Source: a virus
Reading direction: 5' to 3' (one strand)
IMG/VR virus record: IMGVR_UViG_3300046355_000213
Span: 61,035 to 125,034 of that record
DNA length: 64,000 nucleotides
Position 1 is the first letter of the stretch. Every line of letters starts with the position of its first letter. Below are positions 5,236 through 59,246 of the stretch, piece by piece. The position numbers and the translations under genes are program-made. The notes beneath the pieces are model-generated. The model ran no database searches. It saw only the letters and a list, made by a program, of their open reading frames with translations, and was not told the DNA's origin.

Positions 5236-8148
5236 TTATAGTACTTCAAAAGTGTAACCAAGCCTTTTTAACTCTGCCATCTGTGCAGGAGTCACTTCCA
5301 TTTCATCACCTACTGAATGCTGTCCTCCATTTTTCATAGAGCCTCCGCATTCAAAGCATGGCATACCGCCTGCTTCATAAAAGGCATTACCTGAGAATGT
5401 AGAGCCGCCGTCTTTCCATGTCTTTCTGGCAAATGCCCTGAAAAATGGATTGTTGTCTAAGTTCTTTTTATGTCTGGCATAGAAAGCTGCTTTTCTCTCT
5501 GGGTCTTTAGGATGCTGACCTAAGTTAGAATCCCCAAAATATTTGACAGTGCCATCAGGACCTGTTACTTTATGGGTCTTTCCTTTTCTGTCATTGCTTC
5601 TGCTTACAGTGTACCCACCATTAGCCATCTGCTCCATCTGTTCCTCAGTCATCTCCTGGTTCTCCGGAGAGTACATCATGTTGTCATATACAGAACCGGC
5701 AAAGTCATCCATAAGAGTGATCTTGCTTGCCTGCCAGGGTTCCAGGTCAGAATCTGGCTTAATGAACTTACGAAGCTTATCCAGCTTATCCATCATAGCA
5801 TTGATCTGAGACAGAGCCATCTCACCATCTGGTTGACCACCATCACCCATGAACGGCATATAACCGCCGTAAGCATACCCGTAGTCATCCATCTTATCCA
5901 GGTTACCGGCAGCTGCAAAACGGGCACGAGCAATTTCTTCTGGCATTTTGCCTCCCTCTGCATATTGTGCTTTAGGTTTTTTTCCTGCAGCTTTCATTGC
6001 CATAGCAATAGCTGCTTGTTGTGCTGAACCGCCATAGGCCATGTTACTCATGATCTTTGCTTGTACAAATTCCGGTAAAGCTTTAAAGCCAGGATTATCT
6101 GTACCGCCACCATAAGCTTTCTCAGGCGTTACATACAATGAAGTATTAGCCCCCACGTTTTTAAAGTAAGGATTATCTAAAGTCTTTTTGCGGCAGTTGA
6201 TACAACCTGCACTCATGCGGTTATCAGATACTTTATTATTGTCAAATAATTTCTCCCTGTCACCTAACAAGTGAGTAGGAATACCGTGCATGGCTACACT
6301 CACTTTTCTGTTAGGGTTTGCAGGATCCGGAAGCAAACGCTTGTTAGGATCTGTATGCTGGATGTAAAAGAAGTTATCAGACCCATAGTTTTTACCATAG
6401 TCGGTTGCACTTGTGTTACCCTTACCTGCACGGTTCATGGTATATTCACCGGAAGGTGTAGTTCTTTTCTTATAAAACACCGGTTGTTCATCACCTGCAT
6501 CTTGGCCCAGCCCAACCTCATCTTGTAAAGCAAGGTTACCATTCTCATCAAAGAAATAACCACGGGCATTCTGCTTGGATACAATACCAAACTTCTTGCC
6601 TTTGTTCTTCTCTGCGTATTGATTGTAGTAGTTGTACACATCCTGAGGAAGGTCAAAAGATTGCTCTTGTACCTCATCCTCATTCATGCCAAAAGTTCTT
6701 TCAAACCAGTTACGGTTATCTACCTTGTTGTTTACACGTTGCATACCTTTAGCGGTTGCTTTAGTTTGCGTAGTAGGTACGTAGGCAGGCATAGCGGATT
6801 GAACCGCAGGAGAAGCATAGTTTATGTTTACTCGGGGTTTCTCCTGGTACTGCAGCATGTTGAGCATTTGCTTGTTCTGCTCAGCTGTACCTTTGTAATT
6901 ATTGGCAAAGTATTTATCAAATACTTTCTTACGGCTGCTAAAGTCTGCATCCATACCACGGGCCGCCATATAATCATACAAGCTGCCGCCTTTCTGCATC
7001 TCTACTTCCATACCGTACTCAGCTTTTTTCCAACCACCACCTTTGCTCTTATACCACTTAGCTGCCCATCCATTAGCGTAAGCACTTGGATACACATCAT
7101 ACTTTTGTCTGGCCATAGACTTAGCTCTTGACCATAAAGACGGGTTGGTAGGGACATTACCCCCTGATTTGAATTCTTCCATGTCGTTGTACATTTCTTC
7201 ACCCCCAAACTCACGTCTGCGGTGTTGGTAATTTATTTTATCACTTGATGTTTTCTCTCTGGTAAACTTTGCCTTCTCTGCAGATGATAACTCAGAAGAT
7301 GTCTTGGGTGTATCGTCATTAACTCTCTTGCTAGGCCTGCATGCCGGATAACCCTTGCGGGATTCTCCCTCTTGTCTGCCACAGTCTTTGCCTGTCTTTA
7401 CATCTACCCACTTCTCTGCAAACCATCTGTCCAGACCACCGTGTTGACCACCTGATGCATTCTTTGGTAATACACCAGTTCCTTTTTTATAATTTTCACC
7501 AAACCAGGTTGCTGCAGCATCATTAGGAAACTGTATATAAGTCTTAGTAGAGTCTGCATAATCAAATGCATCTTTGCCTAAATACTTTAAAGTACCGTTA
7601 GGCATTTGTACTACAGTTGGATATACACGACTATCACCACTTTGCATATAGTGAGTACTAGGTCCTTTTACTCCAGGTATCTGCATAGAAGGTGTATTCT
7701 TTGGATATAGTCTTTGCACCCAATTAAGATTCTTGTTAGCATTTAGTACAGAATCAACATAAGCTGTTCCACCACCTTGCATCTTAACAGAACCTCCACA
7801 CTTATGACATGTCATAGGATCAGATCCACCATCAACTGCTTTCCAAGAATGACCACAACTAGAGCAAGTAACAGATCGACTTAATAGTCCACCATTCTGC
7901 ATCATTGGATACTCAGTAACGTTATCTGCATCAGGAAATAGATAGTCTTGATTAGGATACATCATTTGAGCTTGTCCAATATTAGGGACCCCTAACACAG
8001 GATAACTAACACCATCCATCGTAATATTATTAGAAGGTATGTTAGTAATCTCACCAGGATGTTGCCACTGGTTACGGGGTACTTTAGGCTTAGAAGGCTT
8101 GGACATCTTCTTTTGGATATCGGCAAGTAAACTCTTATTTAGACTCAT
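5236..8148 (-). CDS. Multi-module cargo protein with an L,D-transpeptidase-like domain, Zn ribbon and several small phage modules separated by xxxGG motifs
   Basis: 970 aa; TTPSGEY...VAMHG...RMSAGCIN (YkuD-like His/Cys motif); CSSC...CHKC ribbon; about 15 GG motifs. Confidence 0.7.
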   Translation of the reverse strand: MSLNKSLLADIQKKMSKPSKPKVPRNQWQHPGEITNIPSNNITMDGVSYPVLGVPNIGQAQMMYPNQDYLFPDADNVTEYPMMQNGGLLSRSVTCSSCGHSWKAVDGGSDPMTCHKCGGSVKMQGGGTAYVDSVLNANKNLNWVQRLYPKNTPSMQIPGVKGPSTHYMQSGDSRVYPTVVQMPNGTLKYLGKDAFDYADSTKTYIQFPNDAAATWFGENYKKGTGVLPKNASGGQHGGLDRWFAEKWVDVKTGKDCGRQEGESRKGYPACRPSKRVNDDTPKTSSELSSAEKAKFTREKTSSDKINYQHRRREFGGEEMYNDMEEFKSGGNVPTNPSLWSRAKSMARQKYDVYPSAYANGWAAKWYKSKGGGWKKAEYGMEVEMQKGGSLYDYMAARGMDADFSSRKKVFDKYFANNYKGTAEQNKQMLNMLQYQEKPRVNINYASPAVQSAMPAYVPTTQTKATAKGMQRVNNKVDNRNWFERTFGMNEDEVQEQSFDLPQDVYNYYNQYAEKNKGKKFGIVSKQNARGYFFDENGNLALQDEVGLGQDAGDEQPVFYKKRTTPSGEYTMNRAGKGNTSATDYGKNYGSDNFFYIQHTDPNKRLLPDPANPNRKVSVAMHGIPTHLLGDREKLFDNNKVSDNRMSAGCINCRKKTLDNPYFKNVGANTSLYVTPEKAYGGGTDNPGFKALPEFVQAKIMSNMAYGGSAQQAAIAMAMKAAGKKPKAQYAEGGKMPEEIARARFAAAGNLDKMDDYGYAYGGYMPFMGDGGQPDGEMALSQINAMMDKLDKLRKFIKPDSDLEPWQASKITLMDDFAGSVYDNMMYSPENQEMTEEQMEQMANGGYTVSRSNDRKGKTHKVTGPDGTVKYFGDSNLGQHPKDPERKAAFYARHKKNLDNNPFFRAFARKTWKDGGSTFSGNAFYEAGGMPCFECGGSMKNGGQHSVGDEMEVTPAQMAELKRLGYTFEVL

Positions 8149-50375: not shown

Positions 50376-50404
50376 AGTGTTGGTGTTTAGTATATGGCAC
50401 TTAG

Positions 50405-50477
50405 AGTAGGAAGACGGATTCGAACCGCCGTGCACCTGTTTTGCAAACAGAGGGCTAAACCGCTCACCCATTCCTAC
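50405..50477 (-). tRNA. tRNA-Cys(GCA)
   Basis: GTAGGAA/TTCCTAC acceptor, loop TTGCAAA, T-loop TTCGAAT, discriminator U. Confidence 0.9.
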
Positions 50478-50482
50478 TTGTG

Positions 50483-50565
50483 TTGAAAGAGAGGGATTCG
50501 AACCCCCGTACCCCGAAGAGAGCAGATTTACAGTCTGCCGGTTTTAGCCACTCACCCACCTTTCA
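50483..50565 (-). tRNA. tRNA-Tyr(GTA)
   Basis: GCAGA-CTGTAAA-TCTGC anticodon arm, long variable arm. Confidence 0.9.
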
Positions 50566-50600
50566 GTATCAAAACTTGCAGCTTTTACAAGTTTTGCTAG

Positions 50601-50682
50601 TACTCCCAGTCAGACTCGAACTGACACATCTTGCGACACCAGATCCTAAGTCTGGCGTGTCTACCAATTCCACCACGGGAGC
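50601..50682 (-). tRNA. tRNA-Leu(TAG)
   Basis: CCAGA-CTTAGGA-TCTGG anticodon arm, Leu-type D loop and variable arm. Confidence 0.9.
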
Positions 50683-50685
50683 AGT

Positions 50686-50811
50686 TAAAGAGACTGCGGG
50701 TCTTTCAAGGTTTCTGATTAGCCTGATTTTACTTACACTTACTATAAACCTTTTTTCAGTGTAATCACCATTATCAGAGGTGTGCTAACTACAGCTTCAA
50801 CCATCTCTTTA
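50686..50811 (-). ncRNA. Candidate 6S-like rod-shaped ncRNA between tRNA-Thr and tRNA-Leu
   Basis: Nested pairings TAAAGAGA/TCTCTTTA, TCTGAT/ATCAGA, TTACACT/AGTGTAA around a large internal bubble. Confidence 0.35.
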
Positions 50812-50812
50812 G

Positions 50813-50886
50813 AGCTTCCTGTAGGATTCGAACCTACGACCACTTGATTACAAATCAGGAGCTCTGGCCAGCTGAGCTAAGGAAGC
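50813..50886 (-). tRNA. tRNA-Thr(TGT)
   Basis: CCTGA-TTTGTAA-TCAAG anticodon arm; canonical cloverleaf. Confidence 0.9.
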
Positions 50887-50951
50887 TTATGTCGCATATA
50901 TTAGACATTATGCCCAAAAACAGGGGTTAATGGCTAATATATTAATCATTG

Positions 50952-51022
50952 CACGTCCTAAAGGATTCGAACCTCTACCAACGGTTTTGGAGACCGCTAT
51001 GCTACCATTGCACCAAAGACGC
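50952..51022 (-). tRNA. tRNA-Trp(CCA)
   Basis: GCGGT-CTCCAAA-ACCGT anticodon arm. Confidence 0.9.
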
Positions 51023-51083
51023 GTACTCCAGTCTATTCCTGGATGTCAACTGCCTGCCTACTTTCGCGCTTGGACAGATTCAG

Positions 51084-51157
51084 TAGAGATAATAGGACTC
51101 GAACCTATGGCCACTGACGTATCAGATCAGTGCTCTAACCAACTGAGCTATATCTCT
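51084..51157 (-). tRNA. tRNA-Ile(GAT)
   Basis: CTGAT-CTGATAC-GTCAG anticodon arm. Confidence 0.9.
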
Positions 51158-51162
51158 ATTTG

Positions 51163-51248
51163 TAGAGAGTGAGAGGCTCGAACTCTCGCGGCTGTAACAC
51201 CCTACCTCGTTAGCAGTGAGGCCCCTTCACCAACTTGGGTAACTCTCT
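51163..51248 (-). tRNA. tRNA-Ser(GCT)
   Basis: CCTCA-CTGCTAA-CGAGG anticodon arm, long variable arm. Confidence 0.9.
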
Positions 51249-51254
51249 ATTTTG

Positions 51255-51329
51255 TGGAGACGGTGGGAGTCGAACCCACGTTACCGTGCTACCCGGTTTT
51301 AATCAGAAGCACCAAAACCCGTCATCCCC
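51255..51329 (-). ncRNA. Mini tmRNA-like RNA (tRNA-like domain only, G3:U70)
   Basis: GGGGATG/CGTCTCC-A acceptor, GTGGG-TTCGACT-CCCAC T arm, no D stem or anticodon arm. Confidence 0.6.
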
Positions 51330-51510
51330 TTAATTCAAACTTATAAGCCGGAGTATTAGTTCCTGTACCTACATTACCTGTTGTAGATATGGTTAATTTT
51401 CCACTGGCAGTAATGCGCATACGCTCTTCAGGCATCTGCCTTTTTTGCTCGGGTAATACACTCAAGGCTGCTAAAGCCCCCAGGTTTGATAAAAAGTTTC
51501 TTCTCTTCAT
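51322..51510 (-). CDS. Small protein: twin-arginine-like signal plus one tail-fibre repeat
   Basis: MKRRNFLSNLGALAAL; ERMRITASG...GNVGTGTNTPAYKFE resembles the repeats of the fibre genes. Confidence 0.5.
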   Translation of the reverse strand: MKRRNFLSNLGALAALSVLPEQKRQMPEERMRITASGKLTISTTGNVGTGTNTPAYKFELRG

Positions 51511-51526
51511 TGTTTACTACTTTTTG

Positions 51527-51671
51527 CTGTAGCGGAAGGATTCGAACCTCCAAGTGGACTTTAGCTATAGGACATTGCGCGCTATTTGTGGTCAACCCTT
51601 TATCCTACGTTTATCAGTAGCTCCACACCCCCGAGACAGGAGGGCACGTCTGCCAATTTCATCACACTACA
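51527..51671 (-). tRNA. Atypical tRNA-Asp(GTC) with 76-nt structured variable arm
   Basis: TGTAGTG/CGCTACA-G acceptor, CCCTC-CTGTCTC-GGGGG arm, GGAGG-TTCGAAT-CCTTC T arm. Confidence 0.75.
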
Positions 51672-51676
51672 GTATA

Positions 51677-59063: not shown

Positions 59064-59160
59064 GGTCAGGTGGCGGAATTGGTAAGACGTGCTTAAAACA
59101 GGCGGTTATAGAGTGTAGCTATGTATATAACTTTTGCAGGTTCGAATCCTGTCCTGACTA
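59064..59160 (+). ncRNA. tRNA-Leu-like element with degenerate anticodon arm
   Basis: GGTCAGG/CCTGACT-A acceptor, GCGGAATTGGTAAGACGT D arm, GCAGG-TTCGAAT-CCTGT T arm; no 5-bp/7-nt anticodon arm. Confidence 0.65.
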
Positions 59161-59246
59161 CAGTGGTGTCATTACCATAGTTTACGAACTGAAATAAAAA
59201 TGTGACAGCTGGAAAGACAGCATTTTTTTCAACCAAACAAAATAGT

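What the first reader, a model, noticed from the sequence alone, without database searches (positions are those of the whole stretch)
51255..51329. 75-nt tmRNA mimic: alanine-identity tRNA-like domain with no mRNA domain
Seen: the minus strand reads GGGGATG ACGGGTTTTGGTGCTTCTGATTAAAACCGGGTAGCACGGTAAC GTGGG TTCGACT CCCAC CGTCTCC A. It has a G3:U70 wobble, A73, a perfect T arm, A rather than U at position 8, and no D stem or anticodon arm. Established: G3:U70 is the AlaRS identity element, and these 5' and 3' ends resemble those of tmRNA, which normally encloses about 250-300 nt including a tag ORF. Here only 43 nt lie between; they can pair as GTGCT/AGCAC (helix-2a-like) and GGTTTTGG/TTAAAACC (alternative fold or pseudoknot). 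Inference: a phage tmRNA reduced to its tRNA-like domain. It could bind SmpB/EF-Tu to block trans-translation, rescue ribosomes without degradation tagging, or decoy RNA-cleaving defences.
Basis: partly seen in the sequence, partly recalled or inferred. Interest (0 to 1): 0.85.

Follow-up and report, generated by a model that had tools for sequence, protein, structure and literature searches.

The report
Phage tmRNA reduced to tRNA-like domain
A freshwater phage carries a 75-base RNA gene that keeps only the alanine-accepting, tRNA-like end of the bacterial ribosome-rescue RNA (tmRNA); this stripped-down form is known from one mycobacteriophage but appears to be common in uncultured phages.

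Summary
Window 51255-51329(-) has a 7-bp acceptor stem with G3:U70 and A73, a perfect T arm, no D or anticodon arm, and 43 nt in between. Rfam's tmRNA model matches it end to end (43.3 bits, cut-off 47), with 326 model positions replaced by 31 nt. It heads a seven-tRNA operon in a complete 125-kb phage distantly related to crAss-like phages. That phage has no full tmRNA and no SmpB.

The kind is not new. Mycobacteriophage DS6A's published "TLD only" tmRNA scores 60.7 bits on a model I built from 32 metagenomic minis; the window's element, left out of that model, scores 47.3. The family has at least 91 viral loci (67 unique sequences), a strongly covarying central helix and invariant G3:U70.

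0 of 80 terminase-anchored relatives carry the element. Two other syntenic contigs carry orthologues at 96-99% identity, while flanking genes are about 70% identical.

The most likely function is engaging host AlaRS and SmpB and competing with host tmRNA. Tag-less ribosome rescue is the main rival. No function was tested here and no RNA data exist.

Verdict: a real, divergent new member of a known but barely documented kind.

The parts
51255..51329 (-). TLD-only tmRNA gene (mini-tmRNA), 75 nt
   Evidence: Sequence. RF00023 43.3 bits, E 1.4e-15. Model R1 47.3 bits. Orthologues in L201 and L197 with 1 and 2 substitutions.
51323..51329 (-). Acceptor stem, 5' strand (GGGGAUG), with G3 of the G3:U70 wobble
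   Evidence: G3:U70 is invariant in all 67 unique family members, and no G3:C70 mini appeared when position 70 was left free.
51313..51322 (-). Single-stranded 5' linker (ACGGGUUUUG), the tmRNA D-loop analogue
   Evidence: Aligns to the tmRNA consensus GAucuGGaUUCG. Unpaired in the MFE of both orthologues. The T13C substitution falls here.
51286..51312 (-). Central hairpin: GUGCU/AGCAC plus UCUG/CGGG with one bulged U, 8-nt loop containing AAAAC (helix-2-like)
   Evidence: Corresponds to the family helix in which 8 of 8 pairs show double compensatory changes. The model aligned it out of register.
51280..51285 (-). 3' linker GGUAAC (canonical members have 3 nt: GAC, AAC or UAC)
   Evidence: The G46T substitution in L197 falls here.
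51263..51279 (-). T arm (GUGGG UUCGACU CCCAC)
51255..51262 (-). Acceptor stem 3' strand (CGUCUCC) plus discriminator A. CCA is not encoded; the trailer is CAAAAU.
50404..51248 (-). Seven tRNA genes (Ser, Ile, Trp, Thr, Leu, Tyr, Cys) downstream on the same strand. tRNA-Ser starts 6 nt after the element.
   Evidence: All seven and the element share the trailer form 'discriminator, then C, then A or T'.
51322..51510 (-). 62-aa ORF whose TGA stop lies inside the element's first 8 nt. Weak tail-fibre PHROG hit. Absent in L201 and L197, which have a different small ORF there.
51526..51672 (-). Upstream long tRNA-like gene (GUC anticodon-like loop, about 75-nt extra arm); probable first gene of the same operon
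   Evidence: 93% identical to L201. No Rfam match at E up to 10.

Best explanation
The element is a phage-encoded tmRNA that has lost the whole mRNA-like part (tag reading frame and pseudoknots). It keeps only the tRNA-like domain (TLD): an alanine-identity acceptor stem, a D-loop analogue, one short helix-2-like hairpin and the T arm. My confidence in this identity is about 0.9.

Proposed mechanism, all of it inferred. The element is transcribed with the tRNA operon and cut out by the host tRNA-processing enzymes. RNase P cleavage at the tRNA-Ser 5' end, 6 nt downstream, defines its 3' trailer. The host CCA-adding enzyme completes the CCA end, because the phage encodes neither a CCA end nor that enzyme. 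The mature RNA then engages the host factors that recognise the tmRNA TLD. These are AlaRS, through G3:U70 and A73, and above all SmpB, which the phage does not encode. With no template to resume translation on, it competes with host tmRNA for SmpB and for stalled ribosomes, which lowers trans-translation and degradation tagging during infection. The 0.45 below refers to this inhibitory, SmpB-titrating function.
For: Identity:
- RF00023 aligns end to end, with nearly every conserved TLD nucleotide kept and 326 internal model positions replaced by 31 nt.
- Model R1, built from 32 metagenomic minis without the window, scores the window 47.3 bits and the published DS6A TLD-only tmRNA 60.7 bits.
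- The family has real structure: 93.8% of cells pair against 45-58% in slid controls, the covariation score is 0.527 against about 0.05, and 8 of 8 central-helix pairs show double changes.
- G3:U70 is invariant. All 12 non-T hits in the 80 listed loci of the position-70-free scan are ordinary tRNAs out of register.

Selection: the orthologues in L201 and L197 are 98.8% and 96.3% identical, against about 70-71% for terminase and portal DNA and 87.5-89.4% for shared tRNAs. Both substitutions fall in predicted single-stranded linkers.

Dependence on the host:
- No SmpB, no full tmRNA and no CCA-adding enzyme in the CheckV-100%-complete genome.
- SmpB in 0 of 50 mini-bearing records, and in 0 of the 13 that are at least 90% complete.
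- Only 1 of those 50 records also has a full tmRNA.

Co-processing: the element shares the strand, the short spacers and the trailer form of the seven tRNAs.

[quoted passage not shown] PMC11915505 says the same (passage).
Against: - No expression, processing, charging or binding data exist for this element. No RNA run holds the stretch.
- The published inhibition was measured with 'a similar molecule' over-expressed in E. coli. I could not read the primary paper.
- The window's element is a divergent member. It ranks 66th of 68 matches on R1, lacks the inner small hairpin, has a 6-nt rather than 3-nt 3' linker, and falls below Rfam's gathering score.
- 0 of 80 terminase-anchored relatives carry it, so it is dispensable for this phage lineage.
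- The very high identity to L201 and L197 could reflect recent exchange between phages rather than selection.
- Strict conservation of G3:U70 suggests that charging matters. A pure SmpB sponge would not need charging, since the cited molecule inhibited 'whether or not chargeable'. This favours the rescue rival.
- It is unclear why blocking trans-translation would help a phage.
Confidence: 0.45

Rival explanations
1. Tag-less ribosome rescue. The alanyl-mini-tmRNA, with host SmpB and EF-Tu, enters the empty A site of ribosomes stalled on broken mRNAs and accepts the nascent chain. With no reading frame to resume on, the peptidyl-RNA is released and hydrolysed by host peptidyl-tRNA hydrolase. 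Ribosomes are freed for phage translation without proteins being marked for degradation. This would help a phage that degrades host mRNA or faces mRNA-cleaving defences.
For: G3:U70 and A73 are invariant in 67 of 67 unique family members, and no G3:C70 mini appeared when position 70 was left free. That argues that aminoacylation is under selection. CCA is encoded in 19 of 67 members. The placement within a tRNA operon fits a translation-supporting role. Mitochondrial tmRNAs without a tag frame are conserved together with SmpB and are thought to help with incomplete mRNAs (PMC11915505, passage).
Against: The only experiment in print, on a similar molecule, reports inhibition of tmRNA rather than rescue. 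The phage encodes no peptidyl-tRNA hydrolase and no RF-1/ArfB-type domain, so the release step would depend wholly on the host. Release of a peptidyl-TLD from the ribosome has not been shown in any paper I read.
Confidence: 0.3
2. Decoy for another host factor that recognises tRNA or tmRNA shapes. Examples are defence nucleases that cut tRNAs or tmRNA, or RNase R, which is controlled through tmRNA-SmpB. The RNA would absorb or misdirect that factor during infection.
For: The RNA is small, highly structured and tRNA-shaped but has no decoding function. Fragments of tRNA and tmRNA are used in a protein-RNA anti-CRISPR that binds RNase R (PMC11662646, passages). One group of mini-bearing contigs has an ArdA anti-restriction gene about 0.85 kb away.
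Against: No defence or counter-defence gene is consistently linked. The largest neighbour cluster covers 10 of 91 loci. The conserved features are exactly the AlaRS and SmpB determinants. There is no anticodon loop, which is the usual target of tRNA-cleaving defences.
Confidence: 0.1
3. A non-functional remnant: a decaying tRNA or tmRNA pseudogene, or an attP-type fragment left by integration into a host tmRNA gene.
For: 0 of 80 relatives carry it. It scores below Rfam's gathering score. The phage genome does encode a tyrosine recombinase, at G000:C1:5172-5708, 70.9 bits.
Against: It shows 96-99% identity across phages whose flanking genes are about 70% identical. The acceptor and T arm are perfect. 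An attP fragment would carry only the 3' part of tmRNA, not a matching 5' acceptor strand. The recombinase gene is at least 17.8 kb away even if the genome is circular. Integrase is found in only 7 of 50 mini-bearing records. The family's central helix covaries.
Confidence: 0.05

Closest known systems
Mycobacteriophage DS6A 'TLD only' tmRNA (tmRNA Website tmID 11587; Mao et al. 2009; Hudson, Lau & Williams 2014; Nawrocki, Petrov & Williams 2025)
   Same: Phage-encoded and about 75-80 nt. It has an acceptor stem with G3:U70, a tmRNA-type 5' segment without a D stem, one central hairpin and a T arm, with no tag frame or pseudoknots. I located it at JN698994.1 28478-28557(+), where it scores 60.7 bits on the same model that scores the window 47.3.
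   Different: DS6A's element stands alone between two protein genes in a temperate actinophage. It has the canonical inner GAAAACCGCACGCGG hairpin and a 3-nt 3' linker. The window's element heads a tRNA operon in a phage distantly related to crAss-like phages, lacks the inner hairpin and has a 6-nt linker.
Bacterial one-piece tmRNA (Rfam RF00023)
   Same: The 5' and 3' ends align to the model's TLD with nearly all conserved nucleotides kept. It has alanine identity and a T arm.
   Different: About 300 nt are missing: the tag reading frame, pseudoknots PK1-PK4 and most of helix 2. It cannot serve as a template. It scores 43.3 bits against a gathering score of 47. CCA is not encoded.
CDS-less organellar tmRNAs (jakobid and other mitochondria, Rfam RF02544; about 65-bp plastid forms in Mallomonadaceae)
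   Same: Natural tmRNAs reduced to roughly the TLD and thought to act with SmpB (PMC11915505, passage).
   Different: They are organellar, mostly circularly permuted (two-piece) genes of separate origin, not phage genes. I made no direct comparison. Jacob et al. 2004 is not held.
tRNA-Ala
   Same: The acceptor stem identity set (G3:U70, A73) and the T arm. ARAGORN labels five of the pattern hits tRNA-Ala, three of which are minis kept in the family.
   Different: The element has no D arm and no anticodon arm, so it cannot decode. Neither ARAGORN nor the Rfam tRNA model at gathering score calls the window's element.

Membership tests
tmRNA (Rfam RF00023), tRNA-like domain | 7-bp acceptor stem with G3:U70 wobble and A73 discriminator (alanine identity) | tested here: met
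   Read directly from the sequence. Aligned to the model's acceptor positions.
tmRNA (Rfam RF00023), tRNA-like domain | T arm (5-bp stem, 7-nt GGUUCGAnUCC-type loop) preceded by ACG, and a 5' segment GA..GG..UU.G without a D stem | tested here: met
   cmscan alignment: GGGGAUGA-CGGGUUUUG ... ACGUGGGUUCGACUCCCACCGUCUCCA against the consensus.
tmRNA (Rfam RF00023), whole molecule | Score at or above Rfam's gathering score (47 bits) | tested here: not met
   43.3 bits. 35 of 50 other minis do pass, ranging from 39.1 to 79.5 bits.
tmRNA (Rfam RF00023), whole molecule | mRNA-like domain with a tag reading frame, and pseudoknots | tested here: not met
   Only 43 nt lie between the acceptor 5' strand and the T arm. 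326 model positions are replaced by 31 nt. ARAGORN finds no tmRNA or tag peptide.
TLD-only tmRNA (DS6A type) | Significant match to a covariance model of the class built without the query | tested here: met
   R1: window 47.3 bits, E 4e-7; DS6A 60.7 bits; true tRNAs in the window 22.4 bits or less. The window ranks 66th of 68.
TLD-only tmRNA (DS6A type) | Single central helix (helix-2-like) between a single-stranded 5' linker and a short 3' linker | tested here: met
   GUGCU/AGCAC plus 4 more pairs. The family-type fold is the MFE in both orthologues. The family helix covaries at 8 of 8 pairs. The window's 3' linker is 6 nt, not 3, so the model aligned it out of register.
TLD-only tmRNA (DS6A type) | Inner AAAnCC motif followed by a 3-4-bp hairpin, seen in canonical members | tested here: inconclusive
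   AAAACC is present in the loop, but the small hairpin is not. Several other family members also lack it.
TLD-only tmRNA (DS6A type) | Binds SmpB and inhibits trans-translation; chargeable with alanine | not testable with these tools
   Known only from citing passages about 'a similar molecule'. There are no RNA-protein tools here and no RNA-seq data.
tRNA (Rfam RF00005) | Cloverleaf with D arm and anticodon arm | tested here: not met
   Not called by ARAGORN or by Rfam at gathering score. The folds show no such arms.
attP remnant of a tmRNA-integrating phage | Only the 3' part of tmRNA, next to an integrase gene | tested here: not met
   Both acceptor strands are present. The recombinase gene is at least 17.8 kb away. 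The element lies within a tRNA operon.

The most novel reading that the evidence does not exclude
TLD-only tmRNAs are not a DS6A curiosity. They are a widespread and largely unrecognised class of phage non-coding RNA. A strict pattern finds at least 91 loci in IMG/VR, and roughly 200 by extrapolation, in phages from 34 kb to 340 kb. Almost none of these phages has its own SmpB or a full tmRNA. The class would act as a general host-takeover device that reprogrammes ribosome rescue, either by sponging SmpB or by tag-less rescue. The window's form, which lacks the inner hairpin and is embedded in a tRNA operon, would be a distinct subtype co-expressed with the phage's translation module.
Probability: 0.35. 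Interest if true: 0.7.

Novelty: new member of a known kind. Interest (0 to 1): 0.5.

Why it matters
Trans-translation is the main ribosome-rescue pathway of bacteria and a drug target. How phages handle it is poorly known. The published record I could find amounts to one phage example (DS6A) and nine 'standard, no CDS' sequences among 97,179 in the 2025 tmRNA database. This window adds a well-supported member in a very different phage and context, at the head of a tRNA operon. The follow-up shows the class is common in uncultured phages, is structurally constrained and always keeps alanine identity. That makes a concrete question testable: do phages switch off, or hijack, host ribosome rescue with a 75-nt RNA? 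It also matters for annotation. Such genes are missed or mislabelled. The window's scores below Rfam's cut-off, DS6A's is unannotated in the part of the GenBank record I viewed (bases 1-50000), and ARAGORN calls others tRNA-Ala, tRNA-Glu or tRNA-Asp.

Tried and rejected
- **BLAST of the region and of the element against deposited phages**. Only tRNA and 3'-end hits came back, and 0 records covered 80% or more of the query. BLAST cannot see this class.
- **blastn-short inside the script box**. It returned nothing even at E 10. I treated this as a tool quirk and replaced it with regex, ARAGORN and the covariance model.
- **Loose regex on the 80 relatives**. No candidates; confirmed with model R1.
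- **Weak R1 hits in L151 and L168**. These are a different element, the long tRNA-Asp-like gene.
- **MAFFT on all 68 sequences**. It scrambled the variable middle. Four rows shifted at the 5' end were dropped before the model was built.
- **Conserved protein partner**. None was found; the largest neighbour cluster covers 10 of 91 loci, and none of the 10 representatives is an integrase.
- **Promoter and terminator scan**. 4 promoter-like sites against 3.7 expected, and 2 terminator-like sites against 2.0 expected. Nothing usable, and Bacteroidota-type promoters are not covered.
- **Pseudoknot GG(U):(R)CC between the D-loop analogue and the inner AAAnCC**. Both motifs are near-invariant, there is no consistent compensation, and the pairing competes with a covarying hairpin. 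Rejected as unsupported.
- **RNA evidence**. No RNA holder is listed.
- **Reads laid from four freshwater DNA runs**. Contigs match 51145-51563 with 0 differences. This is the same strain, so it says nothing about selection. The joint 50597 to 51525 has only 31 nt on one side and is weak.
- **Papers not held**: Mao et al. 2009 and Jacob et al. 2004.
- **Supplementary tables of the tmRNA database paper** were closed. They list the 79 phage and 9 'standard, no CDS' sequences and may name further phage minis.

Full report
**The observation**

Its features are:
- a 7-bp acceptor stem (G1-C, G2-C, G3-U, G4-C, A5-U, U6-G, G7-C) followed by an unpaired A
- a 5-bp T stem with the loop UUCGACU
- A at position 8
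- 43 nt in between that form no D arm or anticodon arm

ARAGORN and Rfam at gathering score call seven tRNAs (Ser, Ile, Trp, Thr, Leu, Tyr, Cys; 50404-51248) directly downstream on the same strand, but not this element. With permissive thresholds, Rfam's tmRNA model RF00023 matches 51252-51329(-) from model position 1 to 374 at 43.3 bits (E 1.4e-15, gathering score 47). The two ends align to the tRNA-like domain and 326 internal model positions are replaced by 31 nt. Folding energy alone is a weak signal (z -2.05).

**Context**

The window is the 3' half of a 125,034-bp IMG/VR virus record that CheckV rates 100% complete. The genome has 43% GC and eight ARAGORN tRNA calls, none of them tRNA-Ala. 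It has no full-length tmRNA, no SmpB, no CCA-adding enzyme, no peptidyl-tRNA hydrolase and no RF-1-type domain. It does have one tyrosine recombinase gene, far from the element.

The large terminase is about 25% identical to those of crAss-like and Flavobacterium phages. Portal, PhoH and an exonuclease lie nearby. A Bacteroidota host is therefore likely, by inference. The stretch recurs in freshwater metagenomes from five further studies.

The element is followed by CAAAAU and then tRNA-Ser. All seven tRNAs and the element have a single C after the discriminator, followed by A or T. They therefore look like one operon with one maturation route, with CCA completed by the host enzyme (inference). 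Upstream lie a 62-aa ORF whose stop codon overlaps the element's first 8 nt and, beyond it, a long tRNA-like gene (see 'Noticed in passing').

**It belongs to a family**

I dropped 21 of them:
- 13 that ARAGORN calls as the 3' ends of full tmRNAs
- 5 more of the same 86-nt sequence family at contig ends
- 3 that are tRNA-like (L048, L056, L077)

That leaves 91 loci with 67 unique sequences of 63-87 nt, median 77. Most share one layout: acceptor stem, single-stranded GA..GGUUUnGAC, a 6-9-bp helix of variable sequence, an inner AAAnCC with a small hairpin, a 3-nt linker, and the T arm.

I built covariance model R1 from 32 canonical members without the window. It scores the window's element 47.3 bits (E 4e-7), against 22.4 bits or less for the window's true tRNAs.

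On the model-guided alignment of 68 matches, 93.8% of cells pair, against 45-58% when partners are slid. The covariation score is 0.527 against about 0.05. All 8 pairs of the central helix change on both sides. There are two caveats. The alignment was fitted to the model's structure. The invariant acceptor and T-arm pairs were fixed by my search pattern, so they carry no information.

To test G3:U70 without that bias, I rescanned with position 70 left free. Of the 80 listed loci, 68 were the earlier T70 hits. All 12 non-T hits were ordinary tRNAs matched out of register: nine tRNA-Met, one tRNA-Lys and two unassigned. No mini has G3:C70.

**The kind is already in print**

Hudson, Lau & Williams 2014 list 'Mycobacterium phage DS6A (TLD only)'. 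[quoted passage not shown] Nawrocki, Petrov & Williams 2025 repeat this. They count 9 'Standard, no CDS' among 97,179 sequences and 79 phage tmRNAs in all from RefSeq viruses, and they report CDS-less plastid forms of about 65 bp and CDS-less mitochondrial forms (PMC11915505, passages).

I located DS6A's element at JN698994.1 28478-28557(+). It is 80 nt long and lies between gp33 and gp34, and the part of the GenBank record I viewed (bases 1-50000) shows no RNA feature there. It scores 60.7 bits on R1 and has the canonical inner hairpin. DS6A, the metagenomic minis and the window's element are therefore one family.

My searches found no paper that describes the class as widespread. Two phage genome papers cite Mao 2009 only in passing. 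I could not read Mao et al. 2009 or Jacob et al. 2004, and supplements were closed.

**How the window's copy differs, and its relatives**

It ranks 66th of 68 on R1. It lacks the inner hairpin and has a 6-nt 3' linker (GGUAAC) instead of 3 nt, so the model placed its helix out of register.

Among 80 syntenic relatives found through the terminase (69-80% amino-acid identity; the best 80 of 136 matches), none has the element or a full tmRNA within the fetched flanks. This holds by ARAGORN plus regex and by R1 over 883 kb, where the best hit was 25.8 bits at E 0.08 and was a different element. Their tRNA sets at this position vary from 0 to 3 genes.

A complete narrower scan returned 15 stretches and found two further syntenic contigs, L201 and L197. 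In both, the element again heads a tRNA cluster (Thr, Tyr, Cys), with 1 and 2 substitutions in 75 nt. Against the window:

| Feature | Identity to window |
|---|---|
| Terminase and portal DNA | about 70-71% |
| Shared tRNAs | 87.5-89.4% |
| The element | 98.8% (L201), 96.3% (L197) |

The two substitutions (T13C and G46T) fall in the two linkers. They remove the extra pairs of the window's own MFE, and the MFE of both orthologues is the family-type fold. The high identity fits purifying selection, but recent exchange between phages cannot be excluded.

**What travels with the class**

I searched the 50 whole records behind 50 of the 67 unique minis.
- **SmpB:** 0 of 50, and 0 of the 13 records that are at least 90% complete.
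- **Tyrosine integrase:** 7 of 50, and 3 of those 13.
- **Full tmRNA alongside the mini:** 1 of 50, a 340-kb phage.
- **Rfam detection:** RF00023 finds the mini in 50 of 50, and 35 of the minis exceed the gathering score.
- **Nearby tRNAs:** a tRNA lies within 300 nt in only 16 of all 112 pattern hits.
- **Protein neighbours:** no neighbour family spans more than 10 of the 91 loci.
- **Cellular genomes:** in one genome each of 185,579 prokaryotic species, a tightened pattern found just 71 stretches. 23 are full tmRNA ends, and only a few of the other 48 are canonical minis.

The class is essentially viral, depends on host SmpB, and is not an attP by-product.

For a rough size estimate, 7 of the 15 loci from the complete narrow scan had appeared in the truncated first scan. 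The first scan therefore saw about half of the collection, which implies roughly 240 pattern matches, about 80% of them minis. The pattern itself is strict, and DS6A's own copy would not match it.

**Mechanism**

What is shown: identity as a TLD-only tmRNA, structural constraint, invariant alanine identity, host dependence for SmpB and CCA, and an operon position with tRNAs.

What is inferred: co-transcription and processing with the tRNAs, CCA addition, charging by host AlaRS (G3:U70 as the AlaRS identity element is established knowledge, recalled rather than taken from a call), and SmpB binding.

My best reading, at 0.45, is competition with host tmRNA for SmpB and for stalled ribosomes, which lowers trans-translation. 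It rests on the one cited experiment.

The main rival, at 0.3, is tag-less rescue. The strict conservation of G3:U70 fits it better, because a pure sponge would not need charging. A decoy for other tRNA-shape-binding factors gets 0.1, and a dead remnant 0.05. No RNA data exist for this phage.

**Verdict**

The finding is real and correctly read. It is a new, divergent member of a known but barely documented kind, not a new kind. The added value is the evidence that the kind is common and constrained in uncultured phages, and that this copy sits inside a tRNA operon.

Noticed in passing
window 51526-51672 (-); also L201 1-126, L197, L168 about 5925-6027, L151, L190, L149, L124 about 1850-1980: A long tRNA-like gene with an acceptor stem, a T arm, an anticodon-like loop CUGUCUC (GUC, with U at position 37) and a structured extra arm of about 75 nt (35 to about 90 nt in relatives). 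It sits at the head of the tRNA region. It is 93% identical between the window and L201, where flanking genes are about 70% identical. ARAGORN calls it a 96-nt tRNA-Asp in six relatives but misses it in the window. No Rfam match at E up to 10.
   Followed up: partly
window 59064-59161 (+): A 98-nt 'tRNA-Pro (agg)' by ARAGORN, scoring only 34.3 bits on Rfam's tRNA model. It is unusually long and lies on the opposite strand from the cluster.
   Followed up: no
window 51322-51510 (-): A 62-aa ORF with a weak tail-fibre PHROG hit (E 1e-3) lies between the long tRNA-like gene and the mini-tmRNA. L201 and L197 have an unrelated small ORF at the same place, so this slot is a swap site.
   Followed up: partly
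L105 4110-4225 and 4228-4309 (+): Two mini-tmRNAs in tandem, 116 nt and 82 nt, separated by 2 nt, in one viral contig.
   Followed up: no
record behind L017 (G013, 340,433 bp): 309390-309751 (-) and 117191-117270 (-): A jumbo phage with both a full-length tmRNA (87.8 bits) and a mini (39.8 bits). It is the only one of 50 records with both.
   Followed up: no
L231, L233, L249, L261-L263, L285, L296 (Poribacteria MAGs); L241, L248, L252, L286 and others: A separate class of tRNA-like sequences of about 67-70 nt in bacterial MAGs. They have GGGG..GA at the 5' end, G3:U70 and a T arm, with several copies per Poribacteria genome, often followed by TAAGG. They do not have the canonical mini layout.
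   Followed up: no
JN698994.1 28478-28557 (+) (L225): DS6A's TLD-only tmRNA lies between gp33 and gp34. The part of the GenBank record I viewed (bases 1-50000) shows no RNA feature there. The same phage encodes an RtcB-like RNA ligase, gp76.
   Followed up: partly
L026, L027, L100 (tRNA-Ala); L198 (tRNA-Glu); L243, L293 (tRNA-Asp): ARAGORN labels several mini-type elements as ordinary tRNAs, so such genes may sit mislabelled in public annotations.
   Followed up: no
window 50597 to 51525: In all four freshwater runs laid, one contig joins 50597 to 51525, skipping the mini and five tRNAs. The flank is only 31 nt. This probably reflects co-occurring relatives that lack the block.
   Followed up: no
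G000:C1:5172-5708 (-) (outside the window): A tyrosine recombinase gene (303-aa frame, 70.9 bits) in a phage distantly related to crAss-like phages.
   Followed up: no
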